Of a DNA stretch of 64,000 nt, positions 32,764-62,824 are shown in pieces. The stretch comes from a phage. Below the pieces are notes generated by a model. That model was not told the origin of the DNA and did no database searches. It was given only the letters and a program-made list of their open reading frames with translations. The position numbers and the translations under genes were made by a program. The DNA is taken from sequence record PZ402300.1; one strand, written 5' to 3'. Position 1 is the first letter of the stretch, and each line of letters opens with the position of its first letter.

Positions 32764-33144
32764 TCAGATTGTACAACCACCACCGTCACAGGTGTTGTTT
32801 TCTGCAAAGGAAGCCAATGCTTTAGCAGTCTCTTCTTTATCATGCAGTGCCTGACGTAGCAGGTAACCTTCTAATTCCCAAATCTTATTGAATGCATTTT
32901 CATATGCATACTGACGCCCCTTCTGCTCATCATAGATAGCTGGATCAACGCAGGCAGATACGCCTTCAACTTTGAATCCATTTTCCAGGATGATAATGCA
33001 ATAGGTTACCAGTCCCAGGTTAGCCAAATCATCTGCTGGAAGTGCAGAAGGGTCAACGAATGCAGACTTCACTGCATCAGCACCATTGAAATAGTAAACG
33101 CTCTTAATCTTAGCTTCGATTGCTTCTTTACTTACTGTTGCCAT
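32764..33144 (-). CDS. hypothetical protein
   Basis: ORF with GAGG RBS before ATG at 33144. Confidence 0.4.
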   Translation of the reverse strand: MATVSKEAIEAKIKSVYYFNGADAVKSAFVDPSALPADDLANLGLVTYCIIILENGFKVEGVSACVDPAIYDEQKGRQYAYENAFNKIWELEGYLLRQALHDKEETAKALASFAENNTCDGGGCTI

Positions 33145-33206
33145 TATTAACCTCATAGAGTGGTTTGAGTTTGTACTTAAACATGATTGTGTTTATTAAT
33201 ACTCAA

Positions 33207-33232
33207 ATAAAAAAATCCCTCCGAAGAGGGAC
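33207..33232 (-). terminator. rho-independent terminator downstream of tRNA region
   Basis: tccctc-cgaa-gaggga hairpin with poly-U on minus strand. Confidence 0.65.
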
Positions 33233-33470
33233 TTAGTAGCTTTAACGCAGCTAACGAGGCTAGGTCGTCAAACTACTATCACTAGTGTGCTAAGCGACGG
33301 TGGGTTGTTAGCCTGATAGTAGTAAGACGTAGGTTTGGATTTTTAAGTGTTACCTTCACTAGCGAAATTCCCATCGAGGGGAATAACAATACAATAGCAG
33401 CCACTGGACTGTCTTACCAGTGTTGTCTTTAGAGTGCGATGCAATCAGGACTATGTTACTGCTAAATGAG

Positions 33471-33544
33471 TACCCACTACTGGATTTGAACCAGTGACCT
33501 TCCGATTATTAGTCGGTTGCTTTCCCCGTCTAAGCTAAGTGGGC
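33471..33544 (-). tRNA. tRNA, 74 nt, no encoded CCA; anticodon loop CUAAUAA (anticodon read as AAU)
   Basis: 7-bp acceptor stem, D-arm GCUU/AAGC, T-arm ACUGG-UUCAAAU-CCAGU folded by hand. Confidence 0.6.
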
Positions 33545-33549
33545 ATAAA

Positions 33550-33625
33550 TGGTTACCCGGACAGGATTCGAACCTGTGTCCTAGTTGGTTTACTAGTGGG
33601 GCTTTACCACTAAGCCTACCGGGTA
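33550..33625 (-). tRNA. tRNA-like gene with encoded CCA; anticodon arm atypical, isotype undetermined
   Basis: Perfect acceptor stem UACCCGG/CCGGGUA, D-arm GGCU/AGCC, T-arm ACAGG-UUCGAAU-CCUGU; anticodon stem is palindromic CUAG with 8-nt loop UAAACCAA. Confidence 0.5.
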
Positions 33626-33828
33626 TTAATGAGTGAGTCATGCCAGGCTTTAACTGGCTCCTTCTTCGCAATCCTTACATACCCCTACATAATTATTGCG
33701 TTAAGCTTTTTTGTTTAAGTTTAAATGAAGGCGTTCTTGCTGACTCATAATTGGGTTGGGCGTTTGACGAATGACTAGTTCGTTACTACCCATTTGCCAT
33801 AAGTACCTGGCGACTTCGGATAACGGGG

Positions 33829-34000
33829 GATGGAATCGAACCACCAGTATTAAGTCTTATTCGTGCACCAAGCACGCTAGTAGATTACTCTACCGGAGGG
33901 AATCGAACCCTATCTACTTCACCAGACCCACCATAATTCTTCTAATTCAGAGTAGCACTGTTGCAGTCGTCACTGCTCATAGGTAAGGATTCGAACCTTA
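33829..34000 (-). other. three T-arm-like hairpins without identifiable acceptor stems (possible tRNA remnants)
   Basis: gatgg-aatcgaa-ccacc (33829-33845), gaggg-aatcgaa-cccta (33896-33912), taagg-attcgaa-cctta (33984-34000). Confidence 0.3.
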
Positions 34001-34062
34001 CAATACCGTTGGTTTGCAACGTCGCTGTACCTTTTCGCGTTCTATGCAATGCTACTTTGAAT

Positions 34063-34186
34063 TGGTTACCAGTGAGGGATTCGAACCCCCGGTTGGAGTC
34101 TATAGCTTACCGCAGCAGCCCTCCAATCTAGCGGTGTCACACTTAGCCCAAACTTGAACATGTCAAGCCATCTCGTGCAACTGGTA
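34063..34186 (-). ncRNA. tRNA-like element, 124 nt, with encoded CCA and exact 7-bp acceptor pairing
   Basis: T-arm GGGGG-UUCGAAU-CCCUC; acceptor ACUGGUA pairs perfectly with UACCAGU 107 nt away. Confidence 0.3.
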
Positions 34187-34188
34187 AT

Positions 34189-34254
34189 TGGTTCCGGCGT
34201 CTGGACTCGAACCAGAACACTCATGCCGTGCACGACACTAGTACCTACACCGGA
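34189..34254 (-). ncRNA. tRNA-like element, 66 nt including CCA, apparently lacking a canonical D-arm
   Basis: T-arm UCUGG-UUCGAGU-CCAGA; acceptor CGCCGGA pairs with UCCGGUG (one G-U). Confidence 0.3.
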
Positions 34255-34335
34255 ATTAATTGCCAGGGATTACACCTGGCTCCATCTGTTTTTATAGTCA
34301 CTCAGATATCGTCTGGACTTGTTGTGTTTGCATTC

Positions 34336-34434
34336 CACAACGGAAAGAGCACTGGAACTTGGGCTGGGTATTACCGCATGTCTTTCGACTTCGAACCAAG
34401 GCTGACATTACCCAATGCTCTTACCTGTTGTGTG
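34336..34434. repeat. direct repeat unit 1 (begins cacaacggaaag, ends cttacctgttgtgtg)
   Basis: Shares both terminal motifs with 34539-34624. Confidence 0.5.
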
Positions 34435-34538
34435 TTGTGGAGTGACGCACCATCTCACTCTTGAATGTTAACCCACTCCCAGCCCAGCAACACACGCTAC
34501 GGTTAAGATTATTGCGCGCGCTGTATGGTCTTGCTGGT

Positions 34539-34624
34539 CACAACGGAAAGGGCACTTAACAGAAGATAGGTCTGATTGCCTCGGATGATTTCTCAGTAGC
34601 CTAAATGCCCTTACCTGTTGTGTG
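34539..34624. repeat. direct repeat unit 2
   Basis: Same terminal motifs as 34336-34434. Confidence 0.5.
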
Positions 34625-35039
34625 CCCATTATTAATCACAGCGGGCCACTGCGCCGAATTTGTTTACAAGGAATCGGAAGACCCTGCTGACTTACAGGCT
34701 ATTACGCCACCATCAGAACAACATCATCGTTTGCATTTATGTTATTGGTTCGTTTCTAAAAAACCGCATAATCGCTTACGAAAACTATCAAAGAGTACAC
34801 TAAGCACAGGTAGCTATCCTGCCGTCTTCTCCATCTACACCGGCTACAGTGTAAACCTCCGCACGTTAGCTTAATGTACTCATTGATAGGATGTCATAAT
34901 AGGGGAGGGAGGACGAGTCCCTCTTTACCCTATGATTTAGTTTACATGTAAGACCTAACATTTCAATGCTGGATGGATAGCGTAATGAACTATCCGACAT
35001 TAATGGTTAATGTTGTGCTCAGCATGAGCGTTAGTTGAT

Positions 35040-35130
35040 AAGGGATCTGAAGCCTTATCCCAAAGATACTAACCTTTGGGATATAGCCTAAGATTCAGAA
35101 ATGGCCCCTATAGGGAGAGGCCATTGATTA
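35040..35130. promoter_or_regulatory. three consecutive stem-loops in long non-coding region (regulatory or origin-like)
   Basis: gataagg..ccttatc, tcccaaag..ctttggga, aatggcc..ggccatt inverted repeats back to back. Confidence 0.25.
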
Positions 35131-35600
35131 ACCCGAATGTTGCTTTACATTTGCTGTGATAACCCATTCTTAAAATAGTCTACCTGACGGATGGGCATCA
35201 ACCCTAGCGTCAGTGCCATACGGCAAAGATTAAGCTAAGAAAGGTTATGATAGGAGTTCCTATCTCAAAGGATTCTAACAGAACCCTTCACGATATTAAC
35301 TACTCAATGTGAAATTCTTTGATTCCTTCTACAGGTTCTACACCCAAGAAAAAGCTAATTTTTCCATTTAGTTTAGATTGAACCAATGGACTGGGGAGAG
35401 TATTCCAATCCACTGGTTCGGTTGTTGTTGTTACTCTGGCGGCTTGTCACCACCGTGTTTACCACTGCATTTCCACAGGATAATGACAGTGATGATAAAA
35501 GCTATGTATGGAGCCGACACGTCTATAATCCTGACCAGTAGTAGCATCAGGACTATAAACACTACCACACCTAGCAGCAGCTTCTGAGCCACCTACCAGA

Positions 35601-36041
35601 TTAACTACGTTTAAGGCCAGCGAACAGTGAAGGCTTAGTAGCAGGTTTCTCTGCTGGTTCTTCAGCCTTAACCTCTTCCTGCACAACTTCTTCTTGTGCT
35701 TCTGGTTCAGCTACTGCTTCTTCTTCAGGTTCCGGCGTAGAACTCTCGTTCGGACCACCAGTAGAGGTCTGGGCTTCTTCTACCTTTACCTCTTCTACCA
35801 CACCCCCAGTCTCTGGTTCTACCGGACGGTGTTTGGCTTCCTGTGGGTTCTTACGAGAACGGCGAGTTTTCTTCTCTACTCCCATGGGTGGAATATCTTC
35901 GTGAACCTCTTCGTTGATACCAACGGAGGCTGTACCGTCTGCATTGATGACAATATTAATGTCACCAGCAAGATTGATTTGATCATCGACATAAGCCTGT
36001 ACAGCAGCTTCTACTTCGGACTGGTTCAAAATGATTTGCAT
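35601..36041 (-). CDS. hypothetical protein with acidic low-complexity C-terminal tail
   Basis: 146-aa ORF; E/P/V-rich C-terminal half. Confidence 0.4.
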   Translation of the reverse strand: MQIILNQSEVEAAVQAYVDDQINLAGDINIVINADGTASVGINEEVHEDIPPMGVEKKTRRSRKNPQEAKHRPVEPETGGVVEEVKVEEAQTSTGGPNESSTPEPEEEAVAEPEAQEEVVQEEVKAEEPAEKPATKPSLFAGLKRS

Positions 36042-61248: not shown

Positions 61249-62216
61249 CATTAGTTAAACGAGTCGTTAGCTCGCCCTTACCTTCCATGATTAACATGGA
61301 AGCCATACGTAGCATCTGCTTCTTTACGAGCAAGCATTGCCTCCTCAAGTGTGTCATACGTACCCAGACCGATCTGTTTACGATTGACTGTGATGTGTGC
61401 CTGGAATCTACCAGAAGGTAATATTCTTACACCATTCACTTTGCTTGATGTATTACGTGATAAACCCATATTCATCTGGTTCTGTCTACTGGTTACATTT
61501 CTCAGATTAGACCAACGGTTGTCGTTTCTAATGTGATTGATGTGATCCACCTGGTTAGGTGTTTCCCCTGTTTCCATTATCCAGATTATTCGATGCAGTA
61601 AGTACTCTTTACGACCCAGACTAACAGATAAATAGCCTTCTTTGTGAGGATACCCCACAATTGTTCCGGCTAATCCACTAGCAGAGTCGTAACGATGAGT
61701 TACTAGCCCACTTTCTCTGTCATACCGTAAAACCTTCTTCAAAGATTCTTGGGTAATAGTATCCAAGTCTTTTATCAGGTTCTTACAGGTAGGACATAGG
61801 TGGCCTATTGGACTCTTTTTAGCATCATAGAAGTTGCAAACAAACTCACTAGAGCATTGCTTACAACTACAGATAGCTGTGTACTTACCAGTTTTACGTA
61901 ATATTTGGGAGTTATCTAACATATGGATTCCTTAGTAATTTTGCATACAATTTCAGATTGTATCCTAACCAAGGAAGTAAGTCTCCAGTTTTCACTGGAG
62001 TATCGGACTATATCATCACCCACTAATCAGTGGGGCAAGGCGCTTGGGTGGTCACTTGACTCACCTACTCTACTCACATACGAAATGTTTTCGATAGTCT
62101 CTGAACCTTCCCTCATGGAGGGCTTGGCTGCTGATTGGCATATCCATAGGACTTAGCTTTCCAGCAATTCACCTTGTTTTCGACACGGATTACTCCGTGA
62201 AGGATCATTTATGTTT
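61249..62216 (-). mobile_element. group I intron 2 with HNH-AP2 homing endonuclease ORF
   Basis: P gaattgctggaaag 62170-62156, Q aatcagcagcc 62136-62126, R gttcagagactatcg 62106-62092, S gatgatatagtccga 62017-62003; ends in G; boundaries +/- a few nt. Confidence 0.65.
61278..61922 (-). CDS. HNH homing endonuclease with AP2-like DNA-binding domain (intron-encoded)
   Basis: HNH motif DHINHIRNDNRWSNLR; AP2-like GVRILPSGRFQAHITVNRKQIGLGTYDTLEEA. Confidence 0.75.
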   Translation of the reverse strand: MLDNSQILRKTGKYTAICSCKQCSSEFVCNFYDAKKSPIGHLCPTCKNLIKDLDTITQESLKKVLRYDRESGLVTHRYDSASGLAGTIVGYPHKEGYLSVSLGRKEYLLHRIIWIMETGETPNQVDHINHIRNDNRWSNLRNVTSRQNQMNMGLSRNTSSKVNGVRILPSGRFQAHITVNRKQIGLGTYDTLEEAMLARKEADATYGFHVNHGR

Positions 62217-62824
62217 AATCATGTACAGTCATTACAGGGAATGGCTTCTTAGGTAAAGTATTGAGCATAGTCAGGATTACATCTGTATCAACCAATGCAA
62301 TGGTTTCTGAGTCCAGATAATCAAAGATACGGGTAGACAGAAAGCCTGATTTCTCATAGCTAGCCCACAGTGTATTAACCGTTTCATGACTAGCACCAGG
62401 GACAACTATGTATTCACCAGTTCCTTCACAGAGGGACTTAATATAGTTCACCTGGTTCACGTTGAAGTTACAACGACGCAGCATCTCACGTACCACCATC
62501 CCATCAATAGAGTGAGTGATGTTAGCAGAGAGCATACGGGTCTTCTCTTCAGTACCCTGAACCATACGAGTGATGTCGAATGGCTTACCTAAGAAGTTAA
62601 CAGTCTGTACTTCAGGAACCATGACCTTAATGACAGCATGGAAGTTGTCAGGAAGTACCCATACGTAACGGTTAGCATCAGGATTACCACATTGCAGTAA
62701 GAACTTGTTAAGTGCCCAAGGACCACTAGCAACAGTTTCCATTACATTCTCAAAAGTCTTGAGACGAATACCTTCACCGAATACTTCTTTAGGCTTGGCT
62801 TCTGAGCCGTAGAATGCAGTCATA
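62217..62824 (-). CDS. T7-like single-subunit RNA polymerase, exon 2 (motif B to catalytic HD)
   Basis: MTAFYGS aligns with T7 MTLAYGS; ends PVMTVHD aligning with T7 FALIHD; UAA stop sits at the junction. Confidence 0.65.

What the first reader, a model, noticed from the sequence alone, without database searches (positions are those of the whole stretch)
33471..33625. Two tRNA genes with unusual anticodon arms
The first tRNA folds canonically but its anticodon loop CUAAUAA gives anticodon AAU with an unmodified-looking A34, which is rare. The second has a perfect acceptor stem, D-arm, T-arm and encoded CCA, but its anticodon stem is the palindrome CUAG with an 8-nt loop UAAACCAA (or 5 bp with a 6-nt loop). 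An 8-nt anticodon loop is the architecture of frameshift-suppressor tRNAs.
Basis: seen in the sequence. Interest (0 to 1): 0.5.

Follow-up and report, generated by a model that had tools for sequence, protein, structure and literature searches.

The report
Two odd phage tRNA genes
An N4-like E. coli phage carries a conserved isoleucine tRNA with a rare A-starting anticodon, and beside it a conserved tRNA-shaped RNA whose anticodon loop is the wrong size to read codons normally; both are real and already annotated in relatives, and nothing supports a frameshift-suppressor role.

Summary
Both genes exist, on the minus strand of a Gamaleyavirus (N4-like coliphage) genome.

**tRNA1 (33544..33471)** is a strong tRNA (Rfam 64.8 bits) with loop CUAAUAA and anticodon AAU.
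- The loop is invariant in 13 distinct relatives, and its stems show compensatory changes.
- Its anticodon arm equals that of tRNA-Ile2(CAU) (Stx-phage ileZ, siphovirus Bas80) except for C34 to A.
- Published E. coli data show that AAU stays unmodified and reads AUU. AUU makes up 61% of this phage's Ile codons.

**tRNA2 (33625..33550)** has normal acceptor, D and T arms.
- Its anticodon arm is 5 bp with a 6-nt loop (AAACCA), or 4 bp with an 8-nt loop. No 7-nt loop is possible.
- It is as conserved as tRNA-Ile. Acceptor and T pairs covary, and so does the tertiary 15:48 pair.
- It lacks U33, its putative anticodon varies between relatives, distant homologues carry 9-nt loops, and some relatives lack the gene.
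- I read it as a selected, probably non-decoding tRNA-like RNA. The frameshift-suppressor idea is unsupported.

In passing: the same RNA island holds a widespread, unannotated tmRNA-like tag template (ANDDVVLMVA) with no tRNA-like domain.

The parts
33471..33544 (-). tRNA1: tRNA-Ile, anticodon AAU, no encoded CCA
   Evidence: ARAGORN; Rfam 64.8 bits; 13 distinct orthologues with compensatory changes at 2:71 and 29:41.
33508..33510 (-). Anticodon AAU of tRNA1 (A34 = 33510), within loop CUAAUAA
   Evidence: Read from the sequence. The loop is invariant in all orthologues. The arm is identical to Stx-phage ileZ and the Bas80 tRNA(CAU) except at position 34.
33550..33625 (-). tRNA2: non-canonical tRNA-like gene with encoded ACCA tail (33553..33550)
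   Evidence: ARAGORN 'tRNA-??? (ac)'; Rfam 42 bits; cloverleaf is the minimum-free-energy fold; covariation.
33581..33596 (-). tRNA2 anticodon arm: stem CUAGU (33596..33592), 6-nt loop AAACCA (33591..33586), stem ACUAG (33585..33581)
   Evidence: The fifth loop base is C, U or G in relatives, and the closing pair is U-A or U.G.
33630..33760 (-). Conserved leader upstream of the tRNA cassettes, containing AUGUAGGGGUAUGUAAGG; present also in relatives that lack the tRNAs
   Evidence: Alignment; the same motif precedes tRNA(CAU) in siphovirus Bas80.
33213..33234 (-). Intrinsic-terminator-like hairpin plus U run that closes the RNA-gene island
34063..34187 (-). Context: about 125-nt tRNA-like module with acceptor UACCAGU/ACUGGUA, discriminator A, T arm GGGGGUUCGAAUCCCUC and encoded CCA; not called by ARAGORN or Rfam
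   Evidence: 87% identical in Klebsiella phage KP8.
34189..34255 (-). Context: D-arm-less mini tRNA-like module (9-bp acceptor stem, long hairpin, T arm, CCA)
   Evidence: Fold (z = -2.6); the KP8 homologue is annotated 'tRNA-OTHER'.
34699..34734 (-). Context: tmRNA-like tag template GCA AAC GAT GAT GTT GTT CTG ATG GTG GCG TAA TAG (ANDDVVLMVA**)
   Evidence: Sub-threshold Rfam tmRNA hits; conserved with synonymous changes in many phages; no start codon.

Best explanation
These are two adjacent phage tRNA cassettes at the 3' end of a mosaic, roughly 2-kb RNA-gene island. The island lies between the gp47-like and gp48-like genes of a Gamaleyavirus (N4-like coliphage).

tRNA1 is a working isoleucine tRNA. 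It descends from the AUA-reading tRNA-Ile2 (anticodon CAU, lysidine-dependent) through a fixed C34-to-A change. With unmodified A34 it no longer needs the host enzyme TilS and cannot be mistaken for tRNA-Met. It reads AUU by full Watson-Crick pairing, and AUU is the phage's most used Ile codon. The lineage, the conservation and the codon usage are shown here. The decoding specificity is taken from published E. coli experiments. Charging by IleRS is inferred.

tRNA2 belongs to a small family of tRNA-shaped RNAs found in phage tRNA clusters. Selection keeps the acceptor stem, T arm, D arm, anticodon helix and the 15:48 tertiary pair, so the L-shape is preserved. The anticodon loop, however, is never 7 nt. 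It most likely does not decode. It probably acts through its acceptor end and elbow, either as a substrate or competitor for a tRNA-binding host factor or as a processing module in the tRNA-Ile precursor. That selection acts on the fold is shown here; the actual role is inferred and remains open.
For: tRNA1:
- Rfam 64.8 bits.
- The loop CUAAUAA is invariant in 13 distinct orthologues. Pair 2:71 switches between C-G and U-A with a U.G intermediate; pair 29:41 appears as C-G, U.G or U-A; pair 1:72 as G.U or G-C.
- The anticodon stem-loop CGACU[A]AUAAUCG equals that of Stx-phage ileZ(CAU). It also equals the tRNA(CAU) that sits at the same place of the same composite cassette in siphovirus Bas80.
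- Ile codon usage in the window: AUU 61% (34 per 1000 codons), AUC 28%, AUA 11%.
- In E. coli an orthogonal AAU tRNA decoded AUU 4.5%, AUC 0.43%, AUA below detection and AUG 0.27%, with no inosine detected (PMC11066159).
- Overexpressed Ile-tRNA(AAU) raised growth rate and final OD in at least two media (preprint).

tRNA2:
- Mean pairwise identity among 15 loci is 95.9%, against 95.5% for tRNA-Ile, 77% for the spacer and 87% for the downstream flank.
- Four acceptor or T-stem pairs change on both sides; 0 of 500 shuffles reach this.
- The Levitt pair 15:48 covaries: G:C in 9 sequences, A:U in 4, G:U in 1; 2 of 500 shuffles reach this.
- The anticodon helix is kept: U-A becomes U.G in NAN33P5, and CCCAG/CUGGG becomes CCCAA/UUGGG between the Enterobacter podophage and the Klebsiella myophage versions.
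- Loop length is 6 or 9 nt, never 7.
Against: - No expression, processing, aminoacylation or modification data exist for either RNA.
- Yeast IleRS recognises unmodified A34 poorly (PMC11685878), so charging of tRNA1 may be inefficient.
- The host tRNA-Ile(GAU) already reads AUU, so the benefit of tRNA1 may be small.
- Both genes are dispensable: of 19 Gamaleyavirus-type loci examined, 2 lack tRNA2 and 2 lack both.
- The encoded CCA of tRNA2 is not conserved (ACCA, AUCA, AUUA or CUCC).
- The sampled genomes are close relatives, so high identity alone is weak evidence for selection.
- No binding partner or target for tRNA2 was identified.
Confidence: 0.5

Rival explanations
1. tRNA2 is a decoding tRNA with an abnormal loop: a +1 (8-nt loop) or -1/doublet (6-nt loop) frameshift suppressor.
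For: The loop length is 8 or 6 nt, depending on one U-A pair. The L-shape and the anticodon helix are under selection, as expected for an RNA that enters the ribosome. Natural and engineered tRNAs with 8-nt loops are known (PMC3113583, PMC9094753).
Against: There is no U33 in either reading. The putative 4-base anticodon varies between close relatives (AACC, AACU, AACG). The closing pair is conserved as U-A or U.G. Homologues have 9-nt loops or other arms. The gene is absent from PhAPEC5, ECBP1, St11Ph5 and EC1-UPM, which have otherwise collinear genomes.
Confidence: 0.08
2. tRNA2 is a decaying tRNA pseudogene. It looks conserved only because the sampled phages are close relatives.
For: It shows presence/absence polymorphism and the CCA tail is not conserved. 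Its Rfam score is low (42 bits, against 52-74 for canonical phage tRNAs). The neighbourhood holds several clearly degenerate tRNA-like remnants. In ECBP1 a neighbouring tRNA is annotated 'tRNA-Pseudo-ACA'.
Against: In the Gamaleyavirus sequences every stem substitution preserves pairing, and across all 14 aligned sequences the acceptor and T stems are 99-100% paired. The tertiary 15:48 pair covaries. Identity equals that of tRNA-Ile and exceeds that of the flanks. The same unusual architecture persists, with compensatory changes, in three unrelated phage groups: Gamaleyavirus, Enterobacter N4-like phages and a Klebsiella Stephanstirmvirinae myophage.
Confidence: 0.22
3. A34 of tRNA1 is deaminated to inosine by host TadA. 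This would give a eukaryote-style IAU tRNA that reads AUU, AUC and AUA and so keeps the ancestral AUA-reading role without TilS.
For: tRNA1 descends from an AUA reader. An IAU anticodon would cover all three Ile codons but not AUG. I34 raises isoleucylation 16-fold in yeast (PMC11685878). The 2026 preprint suggests some flexibility in TadA substrates.
Against: In E. coli, inosine was found only on ACG, AUG and AAG orthogonal tRNAs, not on AAU, and AUA decoding by AAU was below detection (PMC11066159). The loop reads UAAU rather than the UACG of the natural TadA substrate (established knowledge). A crude scan of all ORFs in the window found no CDA/TadA-type zinc motif.
Confidence: 0.1
4. One or both RNAs are counter-defence tRNAs. 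tRNA1's altered wobble base, or tRNA2's altered loop, would escape or soak up a host tRNA-targeting nuclease or toxin.
For: Phage tRNAs with changed anticodon loops evade anticodon nucleases, retron effectors and PARIS (PMC10264068, PMC11555353, PMC11464382). Relatives of tRNA2 sit in clusters with Asn, Asp, Tyr and Gln tRNAs, classes that include known anticodon-nuclease targets (my own knowledge, not tested here).
Against: I know of no nuclease specific for tRNA-Ile in E. coli phage defence. A non-decoding tRNA2 cannot replace a cleaved tRNA. tRNA2 resembles no E. coli tRNA at blastn level.
Confidence: 0.1

Closest known systems
Bacterial and phage tRNA-Ile2 (anticodon CAU, modified to lysidine by TilS; E. 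coli ileX, Stx-phage ileZ)
   Same: tRNA1 has the same anticodon stem-loop except at position 34, a similar T arm and discriminator A73. The tRNA(CAU) of siphovirus Bas80 has the same anticodon arm with C34 and occupies the equivalent position of the same cassette.
   Different: Position 34 is A, not C. It is therefore not a TilS substrate and would not read AUA; it is expected to read AUU.
Eukaryotic tRNA-Ile(AAU), matured to IAU by ADAT2/3
   Same: The genomically encoded anticodon is the same, AAU.
   Different: Bacteria have only TadA, which did not modify an AAU tRNA in E. coli (PMC11066159). tRNA1 has a bacterial tRNA-Ile2 body.
Engineered E. coli tRNAs with A-starting anticodons (Ile-tRNA AAU; bioRxiv 10.64898/2026.05.15.725136; PMC11066159)
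   Same: Same anticodon in the same host cell. They were shown to be translationally active and specific for AUU.
   Different: Those are laboratory constructs. tRNA1 is a natural gene fixed in a phage lineage.
+1 frameshift-suppressor tRNAs (SufB2, SufJ) and yeast mitochondrial tRNA-Thr1 with an 8-nt loop
   Same: An 8-nt anticodon loop is possible if the U-A pair of tRNA2 is open.
   Different: Those are canonical tRNAs with one inserted base; from my own knowledge (not checked here) they keep U33 and a purine at 37. tRNA2 has no U33, has a 3-nt D/anticodon connector and a 3-nt variable region, and its loop size differs among homologues.
Non-decoding tRNA-like RNAs of phages, such as the tRNA-like-domain-only RNA of mycobacteriophage DS6A
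   Same: They share a conserved acceptor/T 'upper half' with no usable anticodon, encoded among phage tRNA genes. DS6A-type RNA inhibits host tmRNA, possibly by titrating SmpB (PMC4131195).
   Different: tRNA2 keeps a full cloverleaf with D and anticodon helices and has C3-G70, not the G3.U70 alanine identity pair.

Membership tests
Canonical elongator tRNA (Rfam RF00005 cloverleaf) | 7-bp acceptor stem, D arm, 5-bp anticodon stem, 5-bp T stem with a T-loop of UUCRAnU type | tested here: met
   Both genes: Rfam 64.8 and 42.0 bits against a gathering score of 29; ARAGORN; fold.
Canonical elongator tRNA (Rfam RF00005 cloverleaf) | 7-nt anticodon loop with U33 and purine 37 | tested here: not met
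   tRNA1 meets it (C-U-AAU-A-A). tRNA2 does not: its loop is 6 nt (AAACCA) or 8 nt (UAAACCAA), with no U at the second position.
Canonical elongator tRNA (Rfam RF00005 cloverleaf) | Tertiary signature: G18-G19, U8, A14, R15:Y48 Levitt pair | tested here: met
   These bases are present in both genes. For tRNA2, pair 15:48 covaries: G:C 9, A:U 4, G:U 1.
Canonical elongator tRNA (Rfam RF00005 cloverleaf) | Expressed, processed, CCA-ended and aminoacylated | not testable with these tools
   No RNA data are available. CCA is not encoded in tRNA1; in tRNA2 it is encoded but not conserved.
tRNA-Ile2 (lysidine-dependent AUA reader) | C34 in a CAU anticodon, the substrate of TilS | tested here: not met
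   A34 in all 13 orthologue variants. The rest of the arm is identical to ileZ.
TadA-dependent I34 tRNAs | Anticodon loop of tRNA-Arg2 type (U33-A34-C35-G36) | tested here: not met
   The loop reads U-A-A-U. No inosine was found on an AAU tRNA in E. coli (PMC11066159).
+1 frameshift-suppressor tRNAs | 8-nt loop of the form N32-U33-NNNN-R37-N38 | tested here: not met
   The 8-nt reading, UAAACCAA, has A at the second position. The minimum-free-energy fold closes the U-A pair and gives 6 nt.
+1 frameshift-suppressor tRNAs | A defined 4-base anticodon kept among orthologues | tested here: not met
   AACC, AACU or AACG among Gamaleyavirus variants; 9-nt loops in more distant homologues.
tmRNA tRNA-like domain | G3.U70 alanine identity pair in the acceptor stem | tested here: not met
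   tRNA2 has C3-G70 and tRNA1 has C3-G70. Only the 'tRNA-OTHER' of KP8 (L007:2245-2319) has G3.U70.

The most novel reading that the evidence does not exclude
The two odd tRNAs may belong to a mobile phage RNA island devoted to manipulating translation. In this reading, an unannotated tmRNA-like tag RNA that lacks a tRNA-like domain, and that is widespread in phages, works together with anticodon-less tRNA-like RNAs such as tRNA2 and its neighbours. Together they would form a split or hijacking ribosome-rescue system. Beside them sits a TilS-independent tRNA-Ile with natural unmodified A34.
Probability: 0.08. Interest if true: 0.85.

Novelty: new variant of a known kind. Interest (0 to 1): 0.42.

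Why it matters
tRNAs with an unmodified A at the wobble position are almost absent from prokaryotes, and why this is so remains an open question. Here a natural tRNA-Ile(AAU), derived from a lysidine-dependent tRNA-Ile2, is fixed and under purifying selection across a lineage of E. coli phages. That offers a ready natural test case in the best-studied host: is A34 left unmodified, is the tRNA charged by IleRS, and does it speed up AUU decoding or cause mistranslation at AUG?

tRNA2 and its homologues with 9-nt loops show that phage "tRNA-Undet" or "tRNA-OTHER" calls are not all junk. Some keep a tRNA fold under selection while having given up a normal anticodon loop, which points to non-decoding uses of the tRNA shape during infection.

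Tried and rejected
- **Alternative folds with a 7-nt loop for tRNA2:** none is possible.
- **A canonical parent for tRNA2:** global alignment against 21 canonical phage tRNAs from 05F01, SABI and KP8 gave no close relative. blastn against 5,426 E. coli genomes gave no match.
- **More diverse homologues:** two IMG/VR scans and the one metagenome scan with acceptor/T-arm patterns gave only 8 loci, all of the two types already seen.
- **Pairing between tRNA2's anticodon arm and the neighbouring RNA region (split-tmRNA idea):** the best duplex is -16.8 kcal/mol, weaker than for shuffled arms (mean -19.6). Rejected.
- **A phage-encoded adenosine deaminase:** no [HC][AV]E...PCxxC motif in any ORF of 60 aa or more in the window. 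This is a crude test, and the window is not the whole genome.
- **A tRNA-like domain with G3.U70 near the tag template in the window:** none found among the tRNA-like modules. The G3.U70 'tRNA-OTHER' of KP8 has no homologue in the window or in the other loci.
- **Literature on tRNAs or tmRNA in N4-like phages**: the only relevant statement is a bare listing of tRNA-Ile-AAT, Undet-NNN and Cys-ACA.
- **The second A34 tRNA of relatives, 'tRNA-Cys(ACA)':** absent from this window and poorly folded, so I did not lean on it.

Full report
**What is there**

The window is a Gamaleyavirus, an N4-like coliphage of the family Schitoviridae. The 2.5 kb around the finding is 85-96% identical to phages EC1-UPM, PhAPEC5, ECBP1, nithesis and others.

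ARAGORN finds exactly two tRNA genes in the 64 kb, both on the minus strand: tRNA-Ile(aat) at 33544..33470 and "tRNA-??? (ac)" at 33625..33550. Rfam's tRNA model scores them 64.8 and 42.0 bits against a gathering score of 29.

The minimum-free-energy fold of tRNA2 is a cloverleaf with these parts:
- a 5-bp D stem
- a 3-nt connector
- a 5-bp anticodon stem, CUAGU/ACUAG
- a 6-nt loop, AAACCA
- a 3-nt variable region
- a normal T arm

Opening the U-A pair gives the 8-nt alternative. A 7-nt loop cannot be formed.

**Setting**

The genes lie at the end of a stretch of about 2.2 kb (33200-35400, minus strand) with no convincing ORF. This stretch sits between a gp47-like gene (35601..36041) and a gp48-like gene (32764..33156), opposite the virion RNA polymerase gene. 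A terminator-like hairpin closes it at 33234..33213.

The stretch is a mosaic of RNA modules. It contains several T-arm-like motifs that the tRNA finders do not call. Two of them have acceptor stems and encoded CCA (34255..34189 and 34187..34063).

Relatives carry different subsets of modules:
- tRNA-Ala(cgc)-like and tRNA-Cys(aca)-like genes in ECBP1 and St11Ph5
- full clusters in Klebsiella phage KP8 and Enterobacter phage SABI (Asn, Asp, Tyr, Gln, Pro)

The two tRNAs of the finding behave as clean cassettes. Both are present in 15 of 19 Gamaleyavirus-type loci. tRNA2 is missing in PhAPEC5 and ECBP1, and both are missing in St11Ph5 and EC1-UPM, with breakpoints at the gene ends.

**tRNA1**

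*Conservation.* The loop CUAAUAA is invariant in 13 distinct orthologue sequences, and the stems change in a compensatory way:
- 2:71 is C-G or U-A, with a U.G intermediate
- 29:41 is C-G, U.G or U-A
- 1:72 is G.U or G-C

So the AAU gene has been under selection for tRNA structure since A34 was fixed.

*Origin.* Its nearest relatives outside the genus are tRNA-Ile2-type genes with anticodon CAU. These include Stx-phage ileZ and genes annotated tRNA-Met or tRNA-Ile in Aeromonas, Listeria and other phages. The anticodon stem-loop CGACUAAUAAUCG differs from that of ileZ only at position 34.

In the unrelated siphovirus Bas80, the same composite cassette ends in a tRNA(CAU) whose anticodon arm differs from tRNA1's only by C34. 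That cassette consists of a tag RNA, a long CACAACAGG...CCGUUGUG hairpin, an AUGUAGGGGUAUGUA motif and then the tRNA. tRNA1 is therefore a tRNA-Ile2 that underwent C34-to-A.

*Published data on AAU in E. coli.*
- An orthogonal tRNA with anticodon AAU decoded AUU 4.5%, AUC 0.43%, AUA below detection and AUG 0.27%. No inosine was detected (PMC11066159).
- Overexpressed Ile-tRNA(AAU) raised growth rate and final OD in at least two media (10.64898/2026.05.15.725136).
- The same preprint calls A-starting anticodons nearly absent from prokaryotes.

*Codon usage.* AUU accounts for 61% of Ile codons in the window's genes (34 per 1000 codons). AUA accounts for 11%.

*Reading.* The best reading is a TilS-independent Watson-Crick reader of AUU.

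*Weak point.* Yeast IleRS handles unmodified A34 poorly (PMC11685878). The inosine alternative (an IAU anticodon reading AUU, AUC and AUA) is not excluded, but the E. coli data argue against it. A crude motif scan also found no deaminase in the window.

**tRNA2**

*Distribution.* Homologues at 90% identity or more occur in 23 phage records and in four metagenome contigs.

*Variation within Gamaleyavirus.*
- The fifth loop base is C, U or G.
- The loop-closing pair is U-A or U.G.
- Pair 49:65 is A-U, G.U or G-C.
- One acceptor pair becomes G.U.
- The tail after the discriminator is ACCA, AUCA, AUUA or CUCC.

*More distant homologues.* These occur in Enterobacter N4-like phage SABI, three IMG/VR contigs, one metagenome contig and the Klebsiella myophage 05F01. 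They keep nearly the same acceptor, D and T arms but carry a 5-bp anticodon stem with a 9-nt loop, (A/G)ACUUAAGA. Between SABI and 05F01 one anticodon-stem pair changes on both sides (CCCAG/CUGGG to CCCAA/UUGGG), and acceptor pair 4:69 changes from C-G to U-A. The KP8 version has yet another arm.

*Covariation across 14 sequences.*
- Four acceptor or T pairs change on both sides; 0 of 500 shuffles reach this.
- The tertiary Levitt pair 15:48 covaries: G:C in 9, A:U in 4, G:U in 1; 2 of 500 shuffles reach this.

*Conservation level.* Mean pairwise identity of tRNA2 among 15 loci is 95.9%, the same as tRNA-Ile (95.5%) and above the spacer (77%) and the downstream flank (87%).

*Conclusion.* Selection maintains an L-shaped tRNA fold, including the anticodon helix, but not a 7-nt loop or a fixed anticodon. 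This argues against a simple pseudogene and against a dedicated quadruplet decoder.

*What was not found.* No canonical parent, no host homologue and no complementary partner in the island turned up. With discriminator A73 and no usable anticodon, the only E. coli synthetase that could plausibly charge it is LeuRS. That is my inference from known identity rules and was not tested.

*Proposed role.* I commit, with modest confidence, to a non-decoding tRNA-like RNA that acts through its acceptor end and elbow. It would be a competitor or substrate for a tRNA-binding factor, or a processing module for the dimeric precursor with tRNA-Ile.

**Comparison with what is known**

Both genes are already in GenBank records of relatives, as "tRNA-Ile(aat)", "tRNA-OTHER", and once mislabelled "tRNA-Thr". 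[quoted passage not shown]

Four points appear to be new relative to the papers I could search:
- the descent of the AAU tRNA from tRNA-Ile2
- its purifying selection
- the covariation evidence that tRNA2 is a maintained fold
- the existence of a cross-family set of tRNA-like genes with 6-nt or 9-nt loops

**Seen in passing: a tmRNA-like tag template**

At 34734..34699 (minus strand) lies a tmRNA-like tag template, ANDDVVLMVA followed by two stop codons.
- It has sub-threshold Rfam tmRNA hits.
- It has no start codon.
- A helix-5-like hairpin follows it.

The 10-residue frame is conserved, with synonymous changes, in these phages:
- N4-like phages of E. coli and Klebsiella
- siphovirus Bas80
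- a lambdoid prophage of E. coli O26, between the Q and S genes
- Salmonella phage Det7
- Citrobacter phage Michonne
- Vibrio phage pYD38-A

The variants seen are ANDDVVLMAA, ANDDVILMAA, ANEEAYLMVA, ANDNTFLAVA, ANDNVFLAVA and ANEEMYLAVA.

The element matches 394 phage records and 570 of 5,426 E. coli genomes, mostly on plasmids, and is almost never annotated. ARAGORN calls no tmRNA in any locus. In Bas80 and Michonne a sigma-70-like promoter sits so close that there is no room for a 5' acceptor strand.

The tmRNA literature I could search lists phage tmRNAs only in mycobacteriophages and Bacillus phage G (PMC4131195, PMC11915505).

I could not link this element mechanistically to the two tRNAs, apart from their repeated co-location.

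**Verdict**

- The frameshift-suppressor interpretation is not supported.
- Interest is moderate. The side observation of the tag RNA deserves its own follow-up.

Noticed in passing
window 34699-34792 (minus strand); also L007:2649-2760, L028:1500-1640, L029:2010-2150, L030:~880-1010, L031:~890-1010, L032:~900-1000: A tmRNA-like tag template with no detectable tRNA-like domain. It encodes ANDDVVLMVA followed by two stop codons, has a tmRNA-like upstream context (..ACAUAAAU-GCA AAC GAU..) and is followed by a helix-5-like hairpin. The 10-residue frame AN[DE][DEN]xxL[AM][AV]A is kept, with synonymous changes, in N4-like phages, siphoviruses, Ackermannviridae, Ounavirinae, a Vibrio phage and a lambdoid prophage. 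It matches 394 phage records and 570 of 5,426 E. coli genomes, is almost never annotated, and I found no description of it in the searched literature.
   Followed up: partly
window 34063-34255 (minus strand): Two tRNA-like modules with encoded CCA that no tRNA finder calls. One is a D-arm-less mini-tRNA (34255..34189: 9-bp acceptor stem, long hairpin, T arm). The other is a roughly 125-nt element (34187..34063) whose acceptor stem starts UACC and has discriminator A, like tRNA2. Both are 84-87% identical in Klebsiella phage KP8, where the first is annotated 'tRNA-OTHER'.
   Followed up: partly
window 33815-34058 (minus strand): Three further degenerate T-arm motifs (GUAAGGUUCGAAUCCUUAC, UAGGGUUCGAUUCCCUC, GGUGGUUCGAUUCCAUC) with weak or partial acceptor pairing. 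They look like remnants of an ancestral tRNA cluster.
   Followed up: partly
window 34335-34440 and 34540-34630 (minus strand): Two copies of a long hairpin, CACAACAGGUAAG(A/G)GCAUU ... AGUGC(U/C)CUUUCCGUUGUG, with different apical inserts (fold z = -2.8 for each). The same element follows the tag RNA in siphovirus Bas80 and in the O26 lambdoid prophage.
   Followed up: partly
window 34795-34888 (minus strand): A long, well-folded helix domain (CCUAUCAAUGAGUACA... / ...UGUACUCUUUGAUAG; fold of 34680-34900 has z = -3.8) directly upstream of the tag template. The closing helix is conserved in KP8, but the interior differs.
   Followed up: no
L007:2245-2319 (Klebsiella phage KP8): A 'tRNA-OTHER' with the alanine identity pair G3.U70, discriminator A73, encoded CCA and a 4-6-nt anticodon loop. 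It is an anticodon-less, possibly alanine-accepting tRNA-like RNA about 400 nt upstream of the KP8 tag template. It has no homologue in the window.
   Followed up: partly
L012:3084-3162 and L001:3353-3432 (ECBP1, UE-S5a): Relatives carry a second A34 gene, 'tRNA-Cys(ACA)', which is poorly folded and annotated as pseudo in ECBP1. It sits where the window has the hairpin repeats. UGU makes up 72% of Cys codons in the window.
   Followed up: partly
window 61983-62226 (minus strand): A group I catalytic intron (Rfam RF00028, 92.8 bits, E 1.5e-22) lying between two minus-strand ORFs (61278..61922 and 62215..62823).
   Followed up: no
L003:~2356-2500 (phage KKP 3715): An extra structured insert of about 140 nt lies between the conserved leader and tRNA2 in this relative only. 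This is another example of cassette-like turnover in the island.
   Followed up: no
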